NCBI GenBank assembly: GCA_028277985.1
Contig: JANQFG010000265.1
Span: 6,832 to 70,831, forward strand
Length of the DNA: 64,000 bases
Direction: 5' to 3'
DNA from: a bacterium
GTDB taxonomy: Bacteria; Desulfobacterota; DSWW01
This document shows positions 18,746 through 47,845 of the stretch, piece after piece (the stretch's first letter is position 1; each line of letters opens with the position of its first letter). A model generated the notes under the pieces. That model had not been told where the DNA came from, searched no databases, and was given only the letters and a program-made list of their open reading frames with translations. A program made the position numbers and the translations under genes.

Positions 18746-18806
18746 GGGGAGGGATGAGGGGGCAGGCCCTGGTACGCCATCTCCCATTGTCCTCGTCCCC
18801 GATTTC

Positions 18807-18826
18807 GGGCACAGGCACGGGCACGG
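18807..18826. repeat. Hexamer micro-repeat (GGCACR)3
   Basis: GGGCACAGGCACGGGCACGG lies 23 nt upstream of start 18849. The same family occurs at 37831, 38736 and, inverted, at 46676. Confidence 0.6.
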
Positions 18827-18848
18827 ACAAAAGAGAAAAGAGGAGCCC

Positions 18849-21737
18849 ATGAAACTACTGAATGATGCAGTGATCAGGGATCGATATGACGTTGTGGTCG
18901 TGGGAGCCGGGATTGGCGGGCTGACCGCTGCCGCTCTGCTGGCGAAGAGGGGACAGAGGGTTCTCGTTCTCGAGCAACACTATATCCCCGGGGGGTGCTG
19001 CACGGCGATCCGGCGCAACGATGTGGCCATCGACGTGGGTGCGGCCCTGCTGTTCGGATGGAACGACGAGACGAGCGCGCACCCCTTCGTGATGAACGAG
19101 CTCGAAGAAGAAATCGACCTGATTCCACACGATTCGACATACCGCATTCACCTCGGGAAGAAGACGGTCACGTTCTGGCGGGACCTGGACCGGTATCTCG
19201 ACGAATTGACGGCGGTGTTTCCGAACCAGGACAGGGAGATTCGTGCCCTCTACCGGGAGTGCAGCGAGTTGTACGAGATCATGATGGGAATGGCCAAGTT
19301 CCCCGTGCCCCCCACGGAGATACCCCCCCTGGACGGGCTCAAGATGGCGCTCAAGGATCCCATCGGGATGATGAAGATGCAGAAGCTCATGTCCATGTCC
19401 GGTGAGGATCTGCTCAAGAAGCACATCACCGATCCGAAAACGACCGATTTCTTCGACTTTCTCGTTGCCTCGTGCACGACCTGTACCGTCAAGGAGAGCC
19501 CTGCGAGCATGGTGGTCGGTATCTTCATGAACATCCATCTCGGTGGGACCTGCTACCCTTCGGGTTCCCCCCAGATGTTTCCGAACAAGCTCGAAAGGGC
19601 CCTGGAGAGATTCGGCGGCCAGATCGTTTACCGGAAGATGGTGGACGAGATCCTGATCTGGCAGGGGAAGGCCTACGGGGTTCGCTTGTCCGACGGAACC
19701 GAGATCCTGGCGGACACCGTGGTTTCCAATGCGGACGTCTGGACCCTCTACGGCACGTTGGTCAACCCGAAGCACATCAAGCCCGACCGGATGGAGTGGG
19801 CGCAGGGGTTCGATCCGACCCCGGCCATCCTGGTGCTCTATATAAGTGTGAAGGAGGAAGCCATTCCGGGAGGAACGCATCCGATCGAATTCTATGTACG
19901 AAGTCTCCACGATGTGCAGGGGGATAACTTCATGGTCTATATCCCCTCCCTCGAAGACCCGACCATTGCTCCGACGGGTACCCATTCCATCACGATCATG
20001 GGATCGAGCAAGATCGATTGGCCCCGTCCTCAGGATCGGTCCTATCGGTCGGACGAGTACAACCGGATGAAAGAAGAGGAGGCGGAGAGGGTCCTTGATC
20101 TGCTCCAGGCGAACTATCTGCCGAACCTGAAGGAAAACATCATCAGCATGGACGTCGGAACCGCATCGACCATCGAACGGTACACACGGAAGTACAAGGG
20201 GAACATCGGTGGGCCGAAAGTCACGACGGAACAGTTCTTCTTCAACCGGCTGAAGGCCCGCAGCGAATGGAAGAATCTCTACTGTGTGGGCGACTCGACC
20301 GCCATGGGCGAAGGGGTTGTTTCCGTGACCATGTCGGGTGTGGGGGCGGCCAACCAGATCTTGAAGGACAAGGGGCTCTTGCCGTACCGGCCTCGTGCGT
20401 TCTCCAAGCATTTCGTCAACATGATCGAGGGCAAGCCCTGGGTCGCGAGCCCGGATCCGGCAGATCCGATTACCGAAGAGGCGGCCATAAGAATCGGCAG
20501 GGACTGCCAGCACTGCGAAGATCCTGAATGTCAGAATGCGTGTCCGGCAGACATCGAGACGAGCCTTTTCGCCCGGCGCATAGAATCCGGGAATTTCGTG
20601 GGTGCCGCGAGGGTGTTGCGGGAGGTGAACCCCCTTTCGGAAGTCTGTGGATACATCTGTCCGGCAGAGCAATTCTGCGAAAAGAAATGCAGCCGGCTGG
20701 ACTTCGACGACCGACCCGTGCGAATCCGCGAGCTCCATGGGTGGGTCTGCGGTCACGCGTCCCGATTCGAGGGGTGGGATCGCTCCGTTCCAGGCCTTAA
20801 CGGCCATAAGGTGGCCGTTGTGGGCGCCGGACCGGCAGGCCTCACCTGTGCCCATTATCTGGCACGACTTGGTTACCGGGTGGACATCATGGAGAAAGCG
20901 AAGGCGTCCGGAGGGATGCTGACACATGCGGTTCCGGCCTTCCGTCTGCCGGACGAGGTCGTGGAGCGCGAGATAGAGGGTTTGAGCCTTCCGGGGATGG
21001 CATTCCAGTACGCAAAGGCCCTTGGCAAGGACTTCAGGATTGCGGAACTGGAGGCGGATTATGATGCCGTCTTCCTGGCACCCGGGTTGTGGTCGGGCCG
21101 AACGCTCGACATCCCCGGCCTGGAGAAGGCGAAGATGACGGACGGGCTGAGGTTCCTCCAATCCTGCCGGGGAAAGAAGAAGGGGAAAGTCGGAAAGAAT
21201 GTGGTGGTTGTAGGAGGGGGGAGCGTGGCGTCGGATGCAGCTGTTTCCGCCGTTGAATGCGGAGCAGAGAAGGTGACACTGGTGTGCCTCGAAGGTCCGG
21301 AGGAGATGCCGTGCCTCAAGAGTGAAATCGTTGAAATGAAGAATCACGGGATCGAGGTGCAGAACGGGTGGGGCCCGAAAGAAGTCACATCCGAATCGAA
21401 GATTTCCTTTGTATGCTGTACCTCGGTGTTCGATGAGACCGGAGCCTTTCGCCCTGTTTTCGATGAATCGAAAACCATGGAGTTGGATTTCGATCAGCTG
21501 ATTCTGGCCGTGGGGCAGCGAACGGAACCGGCTCTTGCCAAATACTTGAAGAAGGAATTCGGGCGGGATGACGGGCTGGATGTGGATCCGCAGACCATGG
21601 AGGTGATCGGCCGAAGCGGGGTATTTGCCGGCGGAGACATCGTGCGTGGAGCCGGAACCGTCGTGGAGGCAGTAGGGGACGGACGTCGTGCCGCCATGGC
21701 CATCGACGAGCAGGTGAGGGATGACCCGGGGTTCTGA
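18849..21737 (+). CDS. CrtI-like::GltD-like fusion flavoprotein (paralog 2, 962 aa)
   Basis: ATG 18849 (SD AAGAGGAG). Reads MKLLNDAVIRDRYDVVVVGAGIGGLTAAALLAKRG and has the same motif series as paralog 1, including CQHCEDPECQNACPAD and NPLSEVCGYICPAEQFCEKKC. The listed ORF start 18555 is an upstream open-frame extension. Confidence 0.85.
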   Translation: MKLLNDAVIRDRYDVVVVGAGIGGLTAAALLAKRGQRVLVLEQHYIPGGCCTAIRRNDVAIDVGAALLFGWNDETSAHPFVMNELEEEIDLIPHDSTYRIHLGKKTVTFWRDLDRYLDELTAVFPNQDREIRALYRECSELYEIMMGMAKFPVPPTEIPPLDGLKMALKDPIGMMKMQKLMSMSGEDLLKKHITDPKTTDFFDFLVASCTTCTVKESPASMVVGIFMNIHLGGTCYPSGSPQMFPNKLERALERFGGQIVYRKMVDEILIWQGKAYGVRLSDGTEILADTVVSNADVWTLYGTLVNPKHIKPDRMEWAQGFDPTPAILVLYISVKEEAIPGGTHPIEFYVRSLHDVQGDNFMVYIPSLEDPTIAPTGTHSITIMGSSKIDWPRPQDRSYRSDEYNRMKEEEAERVLDLLQANYLPNLKENIISMDVGTASTIERYTRKYKGNIGGPKVTTEQFFFNRLKARSEWKNLYCVGDSTAMGEGVVSVTMSGVGAANQILKDKGLLPYRPRAFSKHFVNMIEGKPWVASPDPADPITEEAAIRIGRDCQHCEDPECQNACPADIETSLFARRIESGNFVGAARVLREVNPLSEVCGYICPAEQFCEKKCSRLDFDDRPVRIRELHGWVCGHASRFEGWDRSVPGLNGHKVAVVGAGPAGLTCAHYLARLGYRVDIMEKAKASGGMLTHAVPAFRLPDEVVEREIEGLSLPGMAFQYAKALGKDFRIAELEADYDAVFLAPGLWSGRTLDIPGLEKAKMTDGLRFLQSCRGKKKGKVGKNVVVVGGGSVASDAAVSAVECGAEKVTLVCLEGPEEMPCLKSEIVEMKNHGIEVQNGWGPKEVTSESKISFVCCTSVFDETGAFRPVFDESKTMELDFDQLILAVGQRTEPALAKYLKKEFGRDDGLDVDPQTMEVIGRSGVFAGGDIVRGAGTVVEAVGDGRRAAMAIDEQVRDDPGF

Positions 21738-21773
21738 GACGAGGACGAGGATGAGGACGACGACGAGGACGAT
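21738..21773. repeat. Codon-periodic (GAC/GAG/GAT)12 tract immediately after the TGA stop
   Basis: GACGAGGACGAGGATGAGGACGACGACGAGGACGAT is in frame with the preceding gene and would read DEDEDEDDDEDD. Confidence 0.6.
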
Positions 21774-35303: not shown

Positions 35304-37211
35304 ATGTACGGCTGGGCCGGAAGCCTGTTACGCGTCAATCTGACGGATCGGAAGATACAGAAGGAGGAATACCCGGAGGCCCTGAGGCATCAATTCATCG
35401 GTGGGAGAGGCGTGAACTCGCGCCTGCTCTACAGTGAGGTCAAGCCCGGGATCGATCCGCTGGGGCCCGAAAACAAGCTCTTCTTCGGCACCTCGCCCCT
35501 GACGGGTACCGGCCTGATTACCTCGGGGAGGATCCACGTCACGGCCAAGTCGCCGCTCACGGGGATCCTGGGGGATTCGAACGCAGGGGGACATTTCGGT
35601 CCCGAGCTGAAGTGGGCGGGATATGACCACATCATCATCGAGGGAGCCGCAGACAAGCCTGTCTACTTGTGGATCGACGACGATCAGGTGGAGATCCGGG
35701 ACGCCGGCCATGTCTGGGGGAAGGTGGTTTCCGAGACCTATGCGACCCTCTGGGACGAACTGGGGGACCCTCGCATTCGGATTGCCACCATCGGACCGGG
35801 AGGAGAGAATCTCGTCCGGTTCGCATCCCTCATGACGGATTACGGAAACGCCTGCGGCAAGACCGGCATGGGCACGGTGATGGGGTCGAAGAATCTCAAG
35901 GCCGTCGCGGTTCGGGGGACGAAGGGCTTTCGGGTGGCGGACCCGGAGCGATTCAAAGAGATCGCCAGAGATTGGATCAGAAAGATCAAGAAAGGGCCTA
36001 CCTACGAGAGCTTCTCCAAGTTCGGCACCTTGTCGTACCTGACGCAGTATCATTCCCAGGGAAGGTCCGTCGCGAGGAATGCCCAGGTGACGGCCGATAT
36101 CGACTACATCGACAACTACGATGCGAAGAGCATGATGAAGCATATGACGAGGAGCGTCGCGTGCTTCGGCTGTCCGATACACTGCAAACACGAATTCAAG
36201 GTCAAGAAGGGCCCGTTTGGGGGAGAACACGGTCACGGCACCGAATTCTGCATCATGAGCGCACATGGACCTGCCTGTGGCAACACCGATGAGGCGGCCG
36301 TGCTGAAGATCAACAATATCTGCAACGAATACGGAATCTGCGGAGATACATCCGGGATCACCATGGCTGCGGCCTTTGAATGGTATCAGCGGGGGATCAT
36401 TTCCAAGGAAGACACGGACGGGATTCCTCTCGAATGGGGCAACGCAGAGGCCCAGATCGAGATGTTGATGAGGACGATCCGGAGAGAGGGGTTTGGGGAC
36501 CTCCTGGCGGATGGTTCGGCCCTGGCAGCGGAAAAGATAGGAAAGGGGGCTGAGAAGTACATATCCCACACCAAAGGGAGCGACATCGATCAGGTTGACA
36601 TTCGAACGCTCAAGGGATGCGCCCTGTCGGACGCTGTTTCGAGTCGCGGCGCGGACCCGCAGAGGGGATGGCCGGGGGTCGAGTTCTATCCCATGAAACC
36701 GGCAACCGCAATGAAGCTCTTCGGAAACGAAAACGCAGCGAACCCGAGGTCCTATGAAGGCAAGGGCTCGCTGGTAGATTTCTACACGTCCATCTGCACC
36801 ATGTGCGATGCCCTGGGGATCTGCAAGTTCTCCAGCGCATGGTTCAGTACGCCCATCTATCTGAAGCACATGGGGCAATTGGTCGAGGCTGCTACCGGCG
36901 TGGATTTCAACGAGAAGAAGATGACGGAGATCGCCGCGAGGATCAACAACGTGGAACGAGCCTACCTCGTCAGAGAAGGGATCACGCGCAAAGACGATAC
37001 GATCCACGGCAGGGCCATGGAGGAGCCGGTTCCGTCGGGCCCGTACGAGGGCGAGCGGTTGGATCAGGAAGGCTTGGACAGGATGTTGGACGACTACTAC
37101 AAGGTTGTCGGGTGGGACAAGAAGACAGGTGCACCCACCCGGAAGACACTCGAAAACCTGGGGTTGCAGGATGTCGCGGATGAGCTCGCGGACATGGGCA
37201 AGATCACATAG
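35304..37211 (+). CDS. Tungsten-type aldehyde:ferredoxin oxidoreductase (AOR family)
   Basis: Canonical N-terminus MYGWAGSLLRVNLTDRKIQKEEYP...FIGGRGVNSRLLY...GPENKLFFGTSPLTGT. Length is 635 aa. Confidence 0.9.
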   Translation: MYGWAGSLLRVNLTDRKIQKEEYPEALRHQFIGGRGVNSRLLYSEVKPGIDPLGPENKLFFGTSPLTGTGLITSGRIHVTAKSPLTGILGDSNAGGHFGPELKWAGYDHIIIEGAADKPVYLWIDDDQVEIRDAGHVWGKVVSETYATLWDELGDPRIRIATIGPGGENLVRFASLMTDYGNACGKTGMGTVMGSKNLKAVAVRGTKGFRVADPERFKEIARDWIRKIKKGPTYESFSKFGTLSYLTQYHSQGRSVARNAQVTADIDYIDNYDAKSMMKHMTRSVACFGCPIHCKHEFKVKKGPFGGEHGHGTEFCIMSAHGPACGNTDEAAVLKINNICNEYGICGDTSGITMAAAFEWYQRGIISKEDTDGIPLEWGNAEAQIEMLMRTIRREGFGDLLADGSALAAEKIGKGAEKYISHTKGSDIDQVDIRTLKGCALSDAVSSRGADPQRGWPGVEFYPMKPATAMKLFGNENAANPRSYEGKGSLVDFYTSICTMCDALGICKFSSAWFSTPIYLKHMGQLVEAATGVDFNEKKMTEIAARINNVERAYLVREGITRKDDTIHGRAMEEPVPSGPYEGERLDQEGLDRMLDDYYKVVGWDKKTGAPTRKTLENLGLQDVADELADMGKIT

Positions 37212-37237
37212 GGTTCTTCGTCGAAGAGGGGGGGCAT

Positions 37238-37627
37238 ATGGAAGACCAAGTTAGACAGACGATTGAGTCGTATTTTCGGCTGGTGAACGAGGAGAAGTTC
37301 GACGAGTTCTTCGATCTGTTCGACCCGGACGTGGAGTTCAAGGCACCCTTCAATTTCACCGCCCGGGGGCTCGAAAATGTGAAACCCTTCTATCTGCAGG
37401 TCCCGGTGAACTATCCCCATCACGTGGATACGCCTGAAGAGATCCTCGTCTCGGGGAACAGGGCAGCGGTCTTCATCGACTTCGTGGGCACCTCCAAAGA
37501 GGGGATTGCCATGGCCTTCAAGGCAACGGACTGGTTTCGCATCGAAGACGGGAAGATCAAATCGCTGAACATCTTTTACGACAGCCATCATCTCGCGAGG
37601 GTAGGATCGGGGAAGAAGAAAAGTTAG
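37238..37627 (+). CDS. NTF2/SnoaL-like (ketosteroid-isomerase-fold) protein
   Basis: 129 aa. Contains IESYFRLVNEEKFDEFFDLFDPDVEF...WFRIEDGKIKSLNIFYD. Confidence 0.65.
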   Translation: MEDQVRQTIESYFRLVNEEKFDEFFDLFDPDVEFKAPFNFTARGLENVKPFYLQVPVNYPHHVDTPEEILVSGNRAAVFIDFVGTSKEGIAMAFKATDWFRIEDGKIKSLNIFYDSHHLARVGSGKKKS

Positions 37628-37631
37628 TGTC

Positions 37632-37673
37632 AAGTGGCAAGTGGCAGGTGGCGAGTGGCAAGTGGCGGGCGGC
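37632..37673. repeat. Heptamer tandem array (RRGTGGC)x6
   Basis: AAGTGGC AAGTGGC AGGTGGC GAGTGGC AAGTGGC GGGCGGC begins 5 nt after the TAG stop of the NTF2 gene. Confidence 0.75.
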
Positions 37674-37703
37674 AAGATGTGAGCAAGGCACCTGGTGAGG
37701 GGG

Positions 37704-37775
37704 CAGGCCGAAACTATCAACCCTAGTCACACTCGGTTCGTCAGCCGTGCCACCAGGGTTGATAGTTTCGGCCTG
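37704..37775. repeat. 21-bp perfect inverted repeat with 30-nt loop
   Basis: CAGGCCGAAACTATCAACCCT (37704-37724) and AGGGTTGATAGTTTCGGCCTG (37755-37775), verified base by base. Confidence 0.8.
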
Positions 37776-37830
37776 ACCCCATTTTGGCTGCAGAGTCCCG
37801 GCAGGCCGTCATGACGGTTTGGGCGAAGTG

Positions 37831-37846
37831 GCGGGCACGGGCACGG
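37831..37846. repeat. Hexamer micro-repeat GCGGGCACGGGCACGG
   Basis: Preceded by another GAAGTGGC heptamer copy at 37824-37831. It lies 59 nt upstream of the SDR gene start. Confidence 0.55.
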
Positions 37847-37904
37847 ATGGGGAGGAATACCTGACAGGTTATTGAGTGGGAGGAAGAGAGGGGAAGGGTT
37901 CTCC

Positions 37905-38729
37905 ATGGGCTTGCTCGACGGCAAAGTGGCGGTTGTGACGAATTCCGGTACCGAGGTGGGGCAGGCCATCGCCCTCCTGATGGCCGACGAAGGCGCCCGC
38001 CTGGTGGTGCACGATTCCGAAACCCTTGCGCAGGAGATCCGGGAAAGGGGAAGTGAGGCTGTGGCCTTCATGGTACCCGTGTCCTCCTGGGAAGGAAGCC
38101 ACGATCTGGTCCAAACCGCAGTGGAGCATTTCGGTCGGCTGGATATGCTGGTCAACAACGCGGACCACACCACGGGCATCCGGGATCGGTTGCTATCCGA
38201 CATGAGCAAAGAGGAGTGGGAGGGAGTTGCGAAGGCTCAACTCAAGGCCTCGTTTCTCTGTGCCCGGGCCGCGGCTCCGCAGATGCGAAGCCAACGTCAG
38301 GGCCGCCTCATTCACTTTGCCCTTCCCGAAGCTCTCATCGGGGGCACGGGGCGTACCCATCAGGGGGCAGCCCAGATGGCTGTCGTAGGTCTAAGTCGCA
38401 ACGCAGCCATAGAACTGGAGCGATACCATGTAACCTCGAATTGTATCGTCCCCTGCGACGGGCCCGGAGGGGGGCCGGAGCCGACGGATGTGGCCCCGCT
38501 GGCCGTCTTCCTGGGCAGTGATGCTGCCGAGGGCATTTCCGGCCAGATCTTCGGTGTTAGGGCAAAGGAGATCTTCCTCTTCTCCCAGCCCCGTATCCAA
38601 CGTAGCATCCACAATTCACGGGGGTGGACGCCGGAGAGGCTTTCTGCGATATTCGAAACGACCATGGGGCCCCATTTCACTCCCTTGGAGTCCTCGGACG
38701 CTTATTTCTCGTGGGATTTGGACCTGTAG
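37905..38729 (+). CDS. SDR-fold protein lacking the catalytic and cofactor motifs (predicted pseudoenzyme subunit)
   Basis: Paralog of the next gene, but TGAGRGLG is replaced by TNSGTEVG, NNAG by NNAD, and NYGAAK by HQGAAQ. Confidence 0.75.
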   Translation: MGLLDGKVAVVTNSGTEVGQAIALLMADEGARLVVHDSETLAQEIRERGSEAVAFMVPVSSWEGSHDLVQTAVEHFGRLDMLVNNADHTTGIRDRLLSDMSKEEWEGVAKAQLKASFLCARAAAPQMRSQRQGRLIHFALPEALIGGTGRTHQGAAQMAVVGLSRNAAIELERYHVTSNCIVPCDGPGGGPEPTDVAPLAVFLGSDAAEGISGQIFGVRAKEIFLFSQPRIQRSIHNSRGWTPERLSAIFETTMGPHFTPLESSDAYFSWDLDL

Positions 38730-38735
38730 GGGGGT

Positions 38736-38765
38736 GGCATGGGCACGGGTACGCGTACGGGCAGG
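38736..38765. repeat. Hexamer micro-repeat GGCATG GGCACG GGTACG CGTACG GGCAGG
   Basis: Read directly in the spacer between the two SDR genes. Confidence 0.55.
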
Positions 38766-38834
38766 AGAGGGACATGACCGTCAAACGTCAACAAACCCTG
38801 TTTGAGAATCTGGAGCAAGGCAAAGGGGTGCCAA

Positions 38835-44714: not shown

Positions 44715-46559
44715 ATGATGGCGTACAGAGTAGACATGAGAGATATCCACTTCAATCTGTTTGAGAAACTCGACATTGGGAACCTATGTGCCTTCGAGGC
44801 TTACAAGGACTTCTCCACGGACGACTACAAGATGATCTTGAACGAAGCTGAAAAGCTCGCCGTCAATGTGATTGCGCCCACCCTGGCACCTACGGACAAG
44901 GATGGGGCGAAGTTCGTGGAAGGGCAGGTCGTGGTTCCGGAGGAGGTGCGGGACACACTGCATAAGTTCAACGAGGGAGGCTGGGGAGCAGTGAGCGCCT
45001 CCCCTGAATTCGGAGGGCAGGGCCTGCCGGCGACCCTGGCCGTGGGTACAGGGGACATACTCGTTGCCGCCAATACGGGCTTCAGCGGCTATCAGGGGCT
45101 AACGAGTGCCACGGCCAATCTGATCGCGGAAGAAGGATCGGACTACCTGAAAGAGACCTATTGCGAAAAGATGCTCACAGGAGTCTGGGCCGGGGCCATG
45201 GTCCTCACCGAGGCCCAGGCGGGCAGCGCCGTAGGCGATATCAAGACCTCGGCCAAACGAGATGGAGACACCTATCTCCTGACAGGCAACAAGATATTCA
45301 TCTCCGGCGGGGATCACGACATGAACGAGAACATGGTCCATGTCCTTCTGGCCCGCGTGGAAGGGGCCCCGCCGGGTATCAAGGGTCTGAGCCTGTTCGT
45401 GGCGCCCAAATATCTTGTCAACCCGGATGGGACGATCGGCCAATTCAACCATCTGAAGGCTACAGGCGTAGAAGAGAAAATGGGGATGCACGCTTCTGCA
45501 ACCTGTTCGATCTCGTATGGAGAAGACGGCCCGTGCAGAGCCTGGATTATCGGTGAGGAGAACCAGGGTATCCAGATCATGTTCAAGCTGATGAACCATG
45601 CACGCCTTGGAGTCGGCATGCAGGGGGTTTCTCAGGCGGCGGCCGCGTATCAGCTTGCCCTTGACTACGCCAAAGAACGCATTCAAGGGACTCGCATTGA
45701 AGACGTGAGAGATGCTTCCGCGCCGAGCGTGCCCATTGTCGAGCATCCGGATGTTCGTCGCATGCTGTTGACCCAGAAGGCTGTCGTCGAAGCCACTCGG
45801 AGCCTGGTCTATTCTGTTTCCTATTGGCTCGATCGTGTGAACAACACCACCGATGATGAAGAAAGGCAACGTTACAGCGATCTCGTGGAGTTGCTCACGC
45901 CCATTTGCAAGGGTTATTCCACGGAGATGGCTTTCCATTCCATCACCCTCGCGTTACAGGTTCACGGCGGGTACGGATACTGCGAGGAATACGGAGTCTC
46001 CGTACTCCTGCGAGACGCAAAAATCGGTACCATCTATGAAGGCACCACCGGCATCCAGGCTATGGATCTCCTGGGACGCAAAGTGGCGATGCAGAAGGGT
46101 CGGCTGTTCCAGAATTTTGTAGGCCTGTTGAGTGATTTTGTGAAGAGCAACATCGCTCATCCGGAGCTGGAAAGGCATTTCAAGCTCCTGGGTGAGGCGA
46201 AGGACCAGCTGGTTGCTACCACGATTACGTTGGGAACAAAAGGAATGGGAGGCGATATCGCCTATCCATTGCAGTATGCCACCCCTTATCTGTTCATGTT
46301 CGGTCATGTGGCCTGCAGCTATTTCATCCTTGATCAGGCCCTGCTGGCGTATGAGAAGCTGCAAGCCATATACGAGGAAAAGGGGATTCGGGACGACGGG
46401 GGGAAAGCGCAGCTGGTGCAAGCACATGGCGACGCGAAATTCTATTTCAACAAGATCGAGACAGCCAAGTTCTTTGTTGCCAACATCCTGCCGGATGTGT
46501 ACGGGATCGCCAGGTCGGCGGAATCGGACGACAAGAGTCCGATGCATATCGTTTTTTAG
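44715..46559 (+). CDS. Long-form acyl-CoA dehydrogenase (~600 aa class)
   Basis: Contains GWGAVSASPEFGGQGLP, TEAQAGSAVGDIKTSA, KIFISGGDHD and MQGVSQAAAAYQLALDYAKERIQG. Confidence 0.85.
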   Translation: MMAYRVDMRDIHFNLFEKLDIGNLCAFEAYKDFSTDDYKMILNEAEKLAVNVIAPTLAPTDKDGAKFVEGQVVVPEEVRDTLHKFNEGGWGAVSASPEFGGQGLPATLAVGTGDILVAANTGFSGYQGLTSATANLIAEEGSDYLKETYCEKMLTGVWAGAMVLTEAQAGSAVGDIKTSAKRDGDTYLLTGNKIFISGGDHDMNENMVHVLLARVEGAPPGIKGLSLFVAPKYLVNPDGTIGQFNHLKATGVEEKMGMHASATCSISYGEDGPCRAWIIGEENQGIQIMFKLMNHARLGVGMQGVSQAAAAYQLALDYAKERIQGTRIEDVRDASAPSVPIVEHPDVRRMLLTQKAVVEATRSLVYSVSYWLDRVNNTTDDEERQRYSDLVELLTPICKGYSTEMAFHSITLALQVHGGYGYCEEYGVSVLLRDAKIGTIYEGTTGIQAMDLLGRKVAMQKGRLFQNFVGLLSDFVKSNIAHPELERHFKLLGEAKDQLVATTITLGTKGMGGDIAYPLQYATPYLFMFGHVACSYFILDQALLAYEKLQAIYEEKGIRDDGGKAQLVQAHGDAKFYFNKIETAKFFVANILPDVYGIARSAESDDKSPMHIVF

Positions 46560-46590
46560 TGGCCGTGGCGAGTGACGAGTGACAAGTGGT
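46557..46590. repeat. Heptamer array TAGTGGC CGTGGC GAGTGAC GAGTGAC AAGTGGT starting on the TAG stop
   Basis: Same RAGTGRC unit as at 37632, again anchored at a TAG stop codon. Confidence 0.65.
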
Positions 46591-46659
46591 TCGGGGAAAA
46601 ACGCGATGTTTAGGGGCTTCTTACGCGAGTTAGGAGGCGGGGAGGGCCTGTTGACACCG

Positions 46660-46691
46660 GCCACTTGCCACTCTCGTGGTGCCTGTGCCTG
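46660..46691. repeat. Inverted copy of the heptamer (GCCACTT GCCACTC) plus inverted hexamer repeat (GTGCCTGTGCCT)
   Basis: Read directly in the convergent intergenic region. Confidence 0.55.
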
Positions 46692-46739: not shown

Positions 46740-47792
46740 TCAATCCCGGGTGAACTCCTCCATCCAGTCGCGCGGGTACCCCGGAATACCGCGGCCCATC
46801 CGGCCGAAGAGGACTTTCGAGTATTTGTAGTAGGCCGGCATGGAGGTGAGCATCTTCAGTTTGACCATGGGCGGGAGCCGGGTGATCGCCTCGAAAACGC
46901 GATAGAGATACATATGGTTGCGGTTCATCCGGTCGAACAGGACCTGGGCGCCGTCCCGATCCCGGAGGGCCAGCGCAGAGACCTTGCCGGATGTAAGGGC
47001 CCCGACGATACCGTAGCCGCAGTAAGGGTCGTAGCTGCCCGAGGCTGACCCGGTCATGATGTACCTGTTTCCCGGCCCGAAGAAGAGACGAGTGCCGATC
47101 ATCGTTTCGCAGTAGAAGGGCTTCCAGCCCTCGATTTCAATGCCTGCCCGCTCTCGAAATTGCCGGTCGATGGTCTTCAAGGCCTTCTCCTCGATCCGTG
47201 TTCGCCGGCCGAAGACAAGCCCGTAGAGGATGCCGTTCATGGCCACCGCGTAGAAATAGTCGGGCGAGTAGGTATCCGCGAACTGCCAGTTGGCAGGCCC
47301 AAGCTTGGTGTCCATGACAAAAGCGTAGCCGTATCCGTCTATGAGTTTGTGTACGGAAAAATCCTCCACCGTACACATCGTGCCGGTCGCCACGATACTG
47401 CCGGGTGGAATGTCCTTCAGCCTGTTGACCGGATGACCGAACTCGAACGCAACCCCGTGATCGAGGCAGATCTTGTACAGAAACGTGTCGATGGCCGTCT
47501 CCCGATCGCCTCGCTCCACGCCGTAGTGGTTCAGGTTCGGGAAGAGCCGCTTGTCCCGGATCCACAGTTGGGTCTCCGACAAGAGCTGGAAACAGCTCGA
47601 GACGTCGATACCGATGAGGTCCGACGTATACTGGAGGTCGATTGGTGTTGCATGAAGGGACGGATGATATGCCGGCGATCCGCCTATGGCCTTCTCCTTC
47701 TCCAGGACGAGAACCTCATCCCCCTGTCGCGCCAGATCGATGGCAGCAACCATCCCGGAAAGGCCCGCACCCACAACGGTTCTCTTCGGCAT
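46740..47792 (-). CDS. NAD(P)/FAD-dependent oxidoreductase (Rossmann GxGxxG, subfamily unassigned)
   Basis: Start set at ATG 47792, 7 nt after GGAGGA. Reads MPKRTVVGAGLSGMVAAIDLARQGDEVLVLEKEKAIGGS. Confidence 0.65.
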   Translation of the reverse strand: MPKRTVVGAGLSGMVAAIDLARQGDEVLVLEKEKAIGGSPAYHPSLHATPIDLQYTSDLIGIDVSSCFQLLSETQLWIRDKRLFPNLNHYGVERGDRETAIDTFLYKICLDHGVAFEFGHPVNRLKDIPPGSIVATGTMCTVEDFSVHKLIDGYGYAFVMDTKLGPANWQFADTYSPDYFYAVAMNGILYGLVFGRRTRIEEKALKTIDRQFRERAGIEIEGWKPFYCETMIGTRLFFGPGNRYIMTGSASGSYDPYCGYGIVGALTSGKVSALALRDRDGAQVLFDRMNRNHMYLYRVFEAITRLPPMVKLKMLTSMPAYYKYSKVLFGRMGRGIPGYPRDWMEEFTRD

Positions 47793-47845
47793 AGCCATAT
47801 CCTCCACAGTGTCTAGGGTCTTCTGATCATCACGTCCTGGAACAC

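What the first reader, a model, noticed from the sequence alone, without database searches (positions are those of the whole stretch)
37628..37904. Composite 277-bp intragenic-operon spacer: heptamer array + 21-bp perfect hairpin + hexamer array
Between the NTF2-like gene (TAG stop at 37625-37627) and the SDR pseudoenzyme gene lie three elements in order.
1. Six tandem heptamers (AAGTGGC AAGTGGC AGGTGGC GAGTGGC AAGTGGC GGGCGGC, 37632-37673).
2. A 21-bp perfect inverted repeat, CAGGCCGAAACTATCAACCCT / AGGGTTGATAGTTTCGGCCTG, with a 30-nt loop (37704-37775).
3. Another GAAGTGGC followed by GGGCACGGGCACGG (37824-37846).

A 21-bp perfect stem is far stronger than a normal intrinsic terminator and is not followed by a U-tract. 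The 7-nt periodicity cannot be coding. Possible explanations are a structured RNA processing or stability element that sets differential expression inside the long operon, a protein-binding array, or a miniature non-autonomous repeat element.
Basis: seen in the sequence. Interest (0 to 1): 0.6.

Follow-up and report, generated by a model that had tools for sequence, protein, structure and literature searches.

The report
Mosaic of dispersed repeats between genes
The 277-base gap between two genes of an uncultured sulfate-reducer-type bacterium from a coral metagenome is filled by three kinds of short repeat that also occur elsewhere in the same organism: a 7-base tandem array starting at the stop codon, an 82-base mobile-looking palindrome, and a 6-base array. 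This makes it a fairly ordinary repeat mosaic, not a unique regulatory RNA.

Summary
All three elements are present at the stated coordinates and are far beyond chance. None is unique to this spacer.

- **Heptamer array (37626-37676).** It begins inside the TAG stop codon. A second TAG-anchored array with an inverted partner lies at 46557-46673. Many other contigs of the source metagenome carry look-alike arrays.
- **Hairpin (37699-37780).** The stem is really an 82-nt near-perfect palindrome with 26-nt arms and one mismatch. It belongs to a dispersed family. About 20 other contig ends in the source run, at the organism's own depth, carry the same arms with different flanks and with loops of roughly 7, 8 or 30 nt.
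- **A relative's copy.** A JGI metagenome contig from a relative carries a copy with a compensatory A:T to T:A arm change. That copy also sits just beyond a TAG-anchored heptamer array.
- **Hexamer repeat.** GGCACR pairs recur in three other spacers of the window.
- **No conservation.** The syntenic spacer of the closest relative (L074) has none of these elements. Rfam finds nothing.

Best reading: slippage-made long simple repeats plus a new REPIN/MITE-like palindromic element. The hairpin probably acts incidentally as an mRNA decay barrier or leaky terminator inside the operon.

The parts
37625..37627 (+). TAG stop codon of the SnoaL/NTF2-like gene (37238-37627). Its AG is the start of the first heptamer unit.
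   Evidence: PF12680 SnoaL_2, E 1e-15. The homologue in L074 ends at the same residue.
37626..37676 (+). Stop-codon-anchored heptamer array on the sense strand, about 7 units with consensus AGTGGCR. It is a long simple-sequence repeat.
   Evidence: TRF score 61-68. Motif count 6 against 0.17 expected. In run X1 the summed contig depth is about 600 here, against about 20-25 for unique sequence, and the matching contigs have different flanks.
37699..37780 (.). An 82-nt palindromic dispersed element. The 26-nt arms are GGGGKCAGGCCGAAACTATCAACCCT (perfect over 21 bp, 37704-37724 / 37755-37775). The centre of about 30 nt is variable and partly paired.
   Evidence: I10; -56.2 kcal/mol, z -7.3. Other copies in X1 differ only in the loop. 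A further copy lies in L131.
37781..37785 (+). AUUUU run directly after the extended stem. It gives only a weak terminator-like tail.
   Evidence: It does not pass the terminator scan. L131 has CAUUUC on one strand and no U run on the other.
37806..37817 (.). Small perfect 12-nt palindrome CCGTCATGACGG, preceded by GGCAGGCCGT, which resembles the first bases of the element's arm. Its significance is unknown.
   Evidence: Read directly. Not tested further.
37825..37832 (+). Solo heptamer-type unit GAAGTGGC, in direct orientation to the array.
37833..37846 (+). Hexamer repeat GGGCAC GGGCAC GG. It belongs to a GGCACR tandem motif that recurs in other spacers of the window.
   Evidence: TRF. GGCACRGGCAC occurs 10 times with up to 1 mismatch, against 2.6 expected. 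The 4 exact matches are all intergenic: 18808-18824, 37834-37844 and 46679-46689 on the minus strand.
37905..38729 (+). Downstream SDR-family gene; ATG at 37905.
   Evidence: adh_short, E 4e-29.
46557..46590 (+). Second heptamer array of the same type, again starting in a TAG stop codon (acyl-CoA dehydrogenase-like gene 44715-46559).
46658..46691 (-). Inverted heptamer units (AGTGGCAAGTGGCC) and inverted hexamer units (GGCACAGGCAC). They lie on the sense strand of the convergent gene 46740-47807 and can pair with the array at 46557-46590.
   Evidence: (I15, I23).

Best explanation
The spacer is a mosaic of three fast-evolving, lineage-specific non-coding repeats. It is not one purpose-built element.

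1. **Heptamer array.** A slippage-type long simple-sequence repeat (AGTGGCR)n has grown on the sense strand from the stop codon. This is the same class as the stop-codon-proximal heptamer repeats of Xanthomonas, Nostoc and Geobacter.
2. **Palindrome.** An 82-nt palindromic element belongs to a previously undescribed dispersed family. The family is REPIN/MITE-like: conserved 26-28-nt inverted arms and a hypervariable centre. This copy inserted about 20 nt downstream of the array.
3. **Hexamer repeat.** A GGGCAC hexamer repeat of the kind that sits in several spacers of this genome.

Shown: each part is repeated elsewhere, the arms are conserved and the loops are variable, and none of it is conserved at the orthologous spacer.

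Inferred: the element spreads by transposition or recombination using an enzyme encoded elsewhere. Once transcribed within the long plus-strand operon, the -56 kcal/mol hairpin acts as a barrier to 3'-to-5' exonucleases and as a pause site or leaky terminator. Under that model, transcripts of the upstream genes (up to AOR and SnoaL) would be more abundant than those of the downstream SDR-SDR-RND-ACAD genes. This is what REP elements are reported to do in the E. coli malEFG operon, which I cite from my own knowledge.
For: **Origin and relatives.**
- The window comes from a coral-metagenome organism: run X1 holds 0.95 of the sampled words.
- Its nearest relatives are Syntrophobacteria / Thermodesulfobacteriota MAGs, with 80-87% identity in the AOR protein.

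**Heptamers.**
- A second TAG-anchored array and an inverted partner lie in the same window.
- Many X1 contigs at the organism's depth carry look-alike arrays with other flanks. One example is a 4482-nt contig at depth 26.7.
- Families built from tandem heptanucleotide repeats fill intergenic DNA in Geobacter metallireducens (PMC2700814).

**Hairpin.**
- 23 X1 contigs lie on it.
- The organism's unique contigs have depth 23-29. Other hairpin-bearing contigs have depth 16.6-29.9.
- Summed depth on the consensus arm is about 697, roughly 28 arm copies or 10-15 elements.
- At least 8 different flanking sequences are seen.
- Every listed difference between copies falls in the loop, 37725-37754.
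- Loops are about 7, 8 or 30 nt long.
- L131, a JGI metagenome contig, has a perfect 28-bp-arm copy in which GAAAC/GTTTC is replaced on both arms by GTAAC/GTTAC.
- The window organism's orthologue of the L131 locus is about 85% identical but does not align over the L131 hairpin or heptamers.

**No conservation.** The syntenic SnoaL-SDR spacer of L074 is about 150 nt, cannot be aligned, and has no repeat.

**Hexamers.** All exact GGCACRGGCAC matches are intergenic.
Against:
- No target-site duplication flanks either complete copy.
- A single arm is not itself a palindrome: -4.5 kcal/mol, equal to shuffles. The element therefore fits neither the strict REPIN definition nor the classical MITE definition.
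- Copy number and the assignment to the same genome rest on Logan contig depths, which are only indicative.
- Both hairpin copies whose context is visible lie 20-45 nt beyond a TAG-anchored heptamer array. Only 2 of 34 gene ends in the window carry such an array. This hints that array and palindrome may not be independent.
- The proposed RNA-level effect is untested, because no RNA run exists.
Confidence: 0.72

Rival explanations
1. The heptamer array plus the palindrome form one composite 3'-end module, either mobile or selected. In this model the array, starting at the stop codon, is a platform for an RNA- or ssDNA-binding protein that reads a 7-nt register. HutP, for comparison, reads NAG motifs spaced 7 nt apart (my own knowledge). 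The hairpin would be the terminator or stabiliser that the protein controls, or the module would home to the base after stop codons.
For: The same order (gene, TAG, heptamer array, 20-45 nt, palindrome of the same family) is seen in the window and in L131, at non-orthologous loci of two related organisms. The heptamer units differ between the two, but NAG/UGG is in phase in both. Only 2 of 34 gene ends in the window carry an array, so a coincidence in both places is unlikely if the two were independent.
Against: - The sample is only two copies, and the second was noticed after the fact.
- The second array in the window (46557-46590) has no such palindrome.
- Neither the 884-nt hairpin contig nor the 4482-nt array contig shows the other element, though neither could: the first ends at the hairpin's edge and a differing heptamer unit would not align.
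- The heptamer units are unrelated in sequence between the window and L131.
- No candidate binding protein is known.
Confidence: 0.13
2. The hairpin is a dedicated operon-internal intrinsic terminator or attenuator that separates the AOR/SnoaL unit from the SDR/RND unit. The other copies would be terminators of other genes.
For: The stem has a GC-rich base and is followed by AUUUU. It lies in the longest spacer of the plus-strand gene series. The SDR pair is a separable module: it is absent in L076 and present in L074.
Against: - The 26-bp stem and 30-nt centre are far outside terminator norms, and the terminator scan finds nothing.
- The U run is only 4 nt, and L131 has CAUUUC on one strand and no U run on the other.
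- L074 has no hairpin in the same spacer.
- Near-identical arms at many loci with variable loops point to copying. Independently evolved terminators would not share them.
Confidence: 0.08
3. The G-rich arrays act through G-quadruplex formation in DNA or RNA, as proposed for the GGGNATC heptamers of Xanthomonas and Nostoc.
For: The sense strand of the spacer is 39% G. The published G-rich heptamers occupy the same position, on the sense strand within 50 bp of the stop codon (PMC4692102).
Against: No run of four GGG tracts exists. Only weak two-tetrad GG-N5 patterns are present. The L131 array (TAGCTGT/TGGCTGT) is not G-rich.
Confidence: 0.04
4. A unique structured regulatory RNA, such as a riboswitch, an sRNA or a leader for the SDR gene.
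For: The spacer is long (277 nt), and the whole stretch folds slightly better than shuffles (z -2.1).
Against: - No Rfam family reaches threshold. The only hits are sub-threshold generic miRNA hairpins.
- There is no conservation in the syntenic spacer of L074.
- Every conspicuous part is a repeat found elsewhere.
- There is no credible small ORF.
Confidence: 0.03

Closest known systems
Heptameric long simple-sequence repeats of bacteria: GGGAATC in Xanthomonas and GGGGAYT in Nostoc (Rehm et al. 2015, PMC4692102); tandem heptanucleotide families in Geobacter metallireducens (Aklujkar et al. 2009, PMC2700814); TAACTGA repeats (MacGregor 2015, PMC4679880)
   Same: They are tandem 7-nt units in 2-26 copies, dispersed over many intergenic sites. 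They lie on the sense strand within 50 bp of the stop codon or overlap it, and they also occur as inverted pairs between convergent genes. Their function is unknown.
   Different: The unit sequence is AGTGGCR. There are no GGG tracts, so the quadruplex explanation does not carry over. TAACTGA repeats sit just upstream of start codons, not after stops. Here the array lies beside an unrelated palindromic element.
REPINs (REP doublets forming hairpins) of Pseudomonas fluorescens SBW25 and other proteobacteria (Bertels and Rainey 2011, PMC3116915, PMC3337134)
   Same: They are near-perfect hairpins of about 80-90 nt in extragenic DNA, present in many copies per genome. The two inverted ends are conserved, and the centre varies in length and sequence while still tending to pair. 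They are restricted to particular lineages.
   Different: Each arm here is not itself an imperfect palindrome. No GTAG-type head is visible. No RAYT could be sought. The copy number appears to be tens, not hundreds.
Bacterial MITEs, for example Correia elements of Neisseria, ERIC and RUP (my own knowledge)
   Same: They are short non-coding elements with terminal inverted repeats, inserted between genes and co-transcribed. They can alter mRNA stability or termination.
   Different: No target-site duplication is seen at either complete copy. At 64-82 nt the element lies at the very small end of the range. A parent IS is not known.
BIMEs of E. coli and RIMEs of rhizobia, which are intergenic mosaic elements (my own knowledge)
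   Same: The spacer is built as a mosaic of several different short repeat motifs. One motif is a palindromic unit located between genes of one operon. In malE-malF such a unit stabilises the upstream mRNA segment.
   Different: There is no sequence relationship. The mosaic partners here are tandem 7-mers and 6-mers, not the defined BIME linker motifs. No IHF or gyrase binding is known.

Membership tests
Heptamer long simple-sequence repeats (stop-codon-proximal type) | Head-to-tail 7-nt units, three or more copies | tested here: met
   TRF finds period 7, 5.9 copies, 85% matches. My own scan gives the same result.
Heptamer long simple-sequence repeats (stop-codon-proximal type) | Intergenic, on the sense strand within 50 bp of the stop codon or overlapping it | tested here: met
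   Both window arrays and the L131 array start in a TAG stop codon. The criterion is taken from PMC4692102.
Heptamer long simple-sequence repeats (stop-codon-proximal type) | Same unit dispersed at many sites of one genome | tested here: inconclusive
   Three arrays lie in 64 kb, and many X1 contigs at matching depth carry them. The whole genome could not be searched. Similar arrays in X12 and X13 belong to other organisms.
Heptamer long simple-sequence repeats (stop-codon-proximal type) | Four GGG tracts able to form a G-quadruplex (Rehm-type subclass only) | tested here: not met
   No G3 quadruplex pattern is present, only GG tracts.
REPIN / REP | Many extragenic copies in one genome | tested here: inconclusive
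   About 23 contigs and at least 8 different flanks are seen in X1, at the organism's depth. Only one copy lies in the 64-kb window.
REPIN / REP | Two conserved inverted ends separated by a less conserved centre of variable length, the whole forming a hairpin | tested here: met
   Differences between copies occur only at 37725-37754. Loops are about 7, 8 or 30 nt. The fold gives z -7.3 for the window copy and z -12 for L131.
REPIN / REP | Each end is itself a short imperfect palindrome (a REP) | tested here: not met
   A single arm folds at -4.5 kcal/mol, against a shuffle mean of -4.4.
REPIN / REP | A cognate RAYT (Y1 transposase) gene in the genome, usually flanked by REPs | not testable with these tools
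No transposase is evident in the window.
MITE (DDE-transposase dependent) | Terminal inverted repeats | tested here: met
   The inverted arms are 26-28 nt long.
MITE (DDE-transposase dependent) | Direct target-site duplication flanking the element | tested here: not met
   The window flanks are GGTGA and ATTTT. The L131 flanks are CCCCT and CATTT. No direct repeat of 2-9 bp is present.
MITE (DDE-transposase dependent) | A parent IS with matching ends | not testable with these tools
There is no match in plasmids, phages or viral contigs.
Intrinsic (Rho-independent) terminator | Short GC-rich stem with a 3-8 nt loop, followed by a U-rich tract | tested here: not met
   The terminator scan finds no site here. 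Only 4 U follow the stem, and L131 has CAUUUC on one strand and no U run on the other.
Integron attC site | Outer R''/R' core sites (RYYYAAC ... GTTRRRY), extrahelical bases, and location in an array of promoterless cassettes | tested here: not met
   By inspection, GTTGAT/ATCAAC lie inside the arms, not at the outer ends, and the stem is perfect. Only one copy lies in 64 kb of ordinary operons. The criteria come from my own knowledge.
Any curated RNA family (Rfam 15) | Score at or above the family's gathering threshold | tested here: not met
   There are 0 hits in the whole window. The best sub-threshold hit is mir-55 at 25.9 bits against a threshold of 53.

The most novel reading that the evidence does not exclude
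The stop-codon-anchored heptamer array and the 82-nt palindrome are two parts of one unrecognised 3'-end module. In this reading the module places itself, or is selected, immediately after stop codons. The 7-nt register would be read by a protein, and the palindrome would serve as the mobile or terminating part. The support is that the same gene-TAG-array-palindrome order is seen at non-orthologous loci of two related uncultured Thermodesulfobacteriota.
Probability: 0.12. Interest if true: 0.6.

Novelty: new member of a known kind. Interest (0 to 1): 0.3.

Why it matters
Mostly it settles a question: the eye-catching spacer is repeat DNA, not a new riboregulator.

Three modest points of value remain.
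1. It documents a new palindromic repeat family in an uncultured Syntrophobacteria-type lineage. The family is absent from 185,579 representative genomes.
2. It adds another lineage in which 7-nt arrays start exactly at stop codons, a widespread pattern that is still unexplained.
3. The array and the palindrome sit side by side in two organisms, which gives a cheap, testable lead on whether the two repeat kinds are linked.

For anyone annotating or expressing this catabolic island, a -56 kcal/mol hairpin inside the operon is a likely point of transcript discontinuity.

Tried and rejected
- **Whole-genome tools.** I could not make a whole-genome copy count or look for a transposase or RAYT.
- **Rfam.** The permissive scan of the spacer and the gathering-threshold scan of the window gave only meaningless sub-threshold miRNA-hairpin hits.
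- **Arm searches in representative genomes.** The exact arm, the paired core and the degenerate arm returned no family member. The 36 paired-core hits are unrelated hairpins, mostly one Microcoleus locus. The 4 single-arm hits are at chance level.
- **Other collections.** Viral contigs gave 0 and phages gave no match. In plasmids only the heptamer part matched, to generic (GGTGGCA)n or (GTGGCAA)n arrays in Mesorhizobium, Paracoccus and Klebsiella.
- **Exact-protein look-up.** The SnoaL protein is not on record.
- **RNA runs.** None were found, so transcript ends could not be examined.
- **SDR protein as bait for syntenic loci.** It returned only relatives at 42% identity or less. The AOR bait worked.
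- **Antisense or small ORFs in the spacer.** None has a Pfam hit or a credible start.
- **Sigma-70 promoter scan.** No site was found.
- **Sigma-54 reading of GGCAC repeats.** Rejected by inspection: the GG-N10-GC spacing is not met.
- **attC, Tn3-type inverted-repeat and retron readings.** Rejected by inspection: core sites, a 5-bp duplication and a reverse transcriptase, respectively, are absent.
- **Assembly artefact.** Rejected. X1 holds 95% of the words of 37200-38000. A 322-nt X1 contig matches through the whole hairpin with no difference. L074 has the same SnoaL-SDR adjacency.
- **Lead from earlier notes.** The notes suggest that heptamer arrays are the arms of cassettes carrying a small four-helix-bundle gene. 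No ORF lies between or beside the arrays here.

Full report
**Observation**

The sequence is as described.
- The SnoaL/NTF2-like gene ends with TAG at 37625-37627.
- Six to seven heptamers follow. Tandem Repeats Finder places the array at 37626-37676, period 7, 5.9 copies, score 61-68.
- A perfect 21-bp inverted repeat lies at 37704-37724 / 37755-37775 around 30 nt.
- GAAGTGGC plus GGGCACGGGCACGG lies at 37825-37846.

All of this is well beyond chance.
- AGTGGCRAGTGGC with up to 1 mismatch occurs 6 times, against 0.17 expected.
- The hairpin folds at -56.2 kcal/mol with z = -7.3.

Two refinements are needed.
- In the repeat register the first unit (AGTGTCA) starts with the AG of the stop codon.
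- The stem extends to 26-nt arms with one mismatch, and the centre is partly paired (pair I10). The unit is an 82-nt palindrome, 37699-37780, followed by AUUUU.

**Setting**

Pfam assigns the neighbouring genes: an aldehyde:ferredoxin oxidoreductase (35304-37211), SnoaL (37238-37627), two SDR genes, an HlyD-type adaptor and an AcrB-type pump. All lie on the plus strand.

The window comes from a coral metagenome, since run X1 holds 95% of its sampled words. Its closest relatives in the representative-genome collection are Syntrophobacteria / Thermodesulfobacteriota MAGs with 80-87% AOR identity.
- In L074 the order AOR-SnoaL-SDR-SDR is kept. The SnoaL-SDR spacer there is about 150 nt, has no tandem repeat or hairpin, and cannot be aligned with this one.
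- In L076 the SDR pair is missing, and SnoaL abuts the adaptor gene.

The gene adjacency is therefore real, but the content of the spacer is not conserved.

**Heptamers**

The window holds a second array, TAG-TGGCC GTGGCGA GTGACGA GTGACAA GTGG at 46557-46590. It also begins in a TAG stop codon. An inverted partner lies about 70 nt further on, at 46658-46673, on the sense strand of the convergent gene.

In run X1 the heptamer stretch collects a summed contig depth of about 600. Unique sequence has about 20-25. The contigs concerned have different flanks, and one is a 4482-nt contig at depth 26.7, the organism's own depth. Runs X12 and X13 lack the organism's unique sequence but also contain similar arrays.

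Generic (GGTGGCA)n or (GTGGCAA)n arrays also occur in Mesorhizobium, Paracoccus and Klebsiella plasmids.

The published record fits.
- Heptamers are reported as the over-represented long simple repeat of many bacteria.
- Geobacter metallireducens carries families built from four or five tandem heptanucleotides in intergenic DNA (PMC2700814).

TAG anchoring is not special here, because TAG ends 17 of the 34 genes I listed in the window.

**Hairpin**

It is a dispersed family.
- In X1, 23 contigs lie on it.
- Hairpin-bearing contigs other than the window's own have depths of 16.6-29.9. This matches the 23-29 of the organism's unique contigs.
- Summed depth over the consensus arm is about 697, roughly 28 arm copies. 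At least eight unrelated flanking sequences are seen.
- Every listed difference between copies lies in the loop, 37725-37754, and none lies in the arms.

- It has 28-bp perfect arms and folds at -62 kcal/mol.
- Compared with the window, GAAAC/GTTTC has become GTAAC/GTTAC on both arms, so the palindrome is maintained.
- L131 comes from a relative. A 4482-nt X1 contig is about 85% identical to its CooS / small-gene part, but does not align over the hairpin or the array. The element is therefore not at an orthologous site.

No family member exists in the representative genomes, viral contigs, phages or plasmids.

**Hexamers**

Exact GGCACRGGCAC occurs only in spacers: 18808-18824, 37834-37844 and, on the minus strand, 46679-46689. 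A degenerate run lies at 38736-38759, just after another TAG stop.

**What it is not**

- *Rfam family:* none.
- *Canonical terminator:* no. L131 has CAUUUC on one strand and no U run on the other.
- *Small ORF or antisense gene:* none credible.
- *G3 quadruplex motif:* none.
- *Strict REPIN:* no. A single arm is not a palindrome, and no RAYT could be sought.
- *Classical MITE:* no. There is no target-site duplication.
- *attC site:* no. The core sites are misplaced and the stem is perfect.

**Mechanism**

Shown: the spacer is a mosaic of three repeat kinds, each found elsewhere in the organism, and they turn over faster than the genes around them.

Inferred:
- The arrays arise by replication slippage and can expand only into non-coding DNA, so they abut the stop codon.
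- The palindrome spreads by a trans-acting enzyme. The absence of a duplication favours a single-strand, hairpin-recognising type such as Y1/RAYT.
- Once transcribed, the very stable hairpin protects the upstream mRNA segment and lowers read-through into the SDR-RND part, as reported for REP elements in E. coli operons (my own knowledge).

One observation does not fit pure independence. Both copies with visible context lie 20-45 nt beyond a TAG-anchored heptamer array. I carry that as the main rival and as the novel case.

**Limits**

- No RNA data exist.
- Logan contig depths give only rough copy numbers.
- The contigs covering 37790-38830 were not among the 82% of X1 contigs that were read. 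The word index nevertheless shows that X1 holds them.

**Verdict**

It is best filed as a new member of known kinds: a heptamer simple repeat plus a REPIN/MITE-like palindrome. Interest is modest.

Noticed in passing
window, all listed genes: TAG is the commonest stop codon: 17 of the 34 ORF ends I listed, against 12 TGA and 5 TAA. This is unusual for bacteria and may be a lineage trait.
   Followed up: partly
window 21738-21772: A (GACGAG)6 hexamer array starts directly after the TGA stop of the second CrtI-GltD-type paralogue. It is in frame with that gene and would read as an Asp/Glu tail. It may be a remnant tail or a read-through extension.
   Followed up: no
window 18746-18849: The spacer between paralogues 1 and 2 has the same layout as the finding. 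A G-rich hairpin directly follows the stop, and GGGCAC AGGCAC GGGCAC lies 21 nt before the next ATG. It shares an identical 14-mer, TGAGGGGGCAGGCC (18755-18768), with the left edge of the palindrome (37696-37709). It could be a decayed copy or a preferred target.
   Followed up: partly
window 38736-38759: A degenerate hexamer run (GGCATG GGCACG GGTACG CGTACG) begins 7 nt after the TAG stop of the first SDR gene.
   Followed up: partly
L076 2774-4413 and L074 10006-12493: The SDR gene pair is present in L074 and in the window but absent in L076, where SnoaL overlaps the HlyD-type gene. The pair therefore looks like an inserted two-gene module.
   Followed up: partly
L131 205-238 and 234-497 (minus strand): In the relative's contig, an 87-aa ORF with no significant Pfam match lies downstream of a CooS-type CO dehydrogenase gene. 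It ends in a TAG that starts the array TAGCTGT TAGCTAT TGGCTGT TGGCTCT. The palindrome follows about 42 nt later.
   Followed up: partly
L071 about 480-650, L073 about 550-725, L072 600-642: Long pure (GGTGGCA)n arrays occur in Mesorhizobium and Paracoccus replicons: about 25 units at one site and 37 places in one plasmid. Klebsiella IncF plasmids carry a (GTGGCAA)6 array. Near-identical 7-mer units thus recur across phyla.
   Followed up: no
window 37806-37817: A perfect 12-nt palindrome, CCGTCATGACGG, is preceded by GGCAGGCCGT, which resembles the first bases of the element's arm.
   Followed up: no
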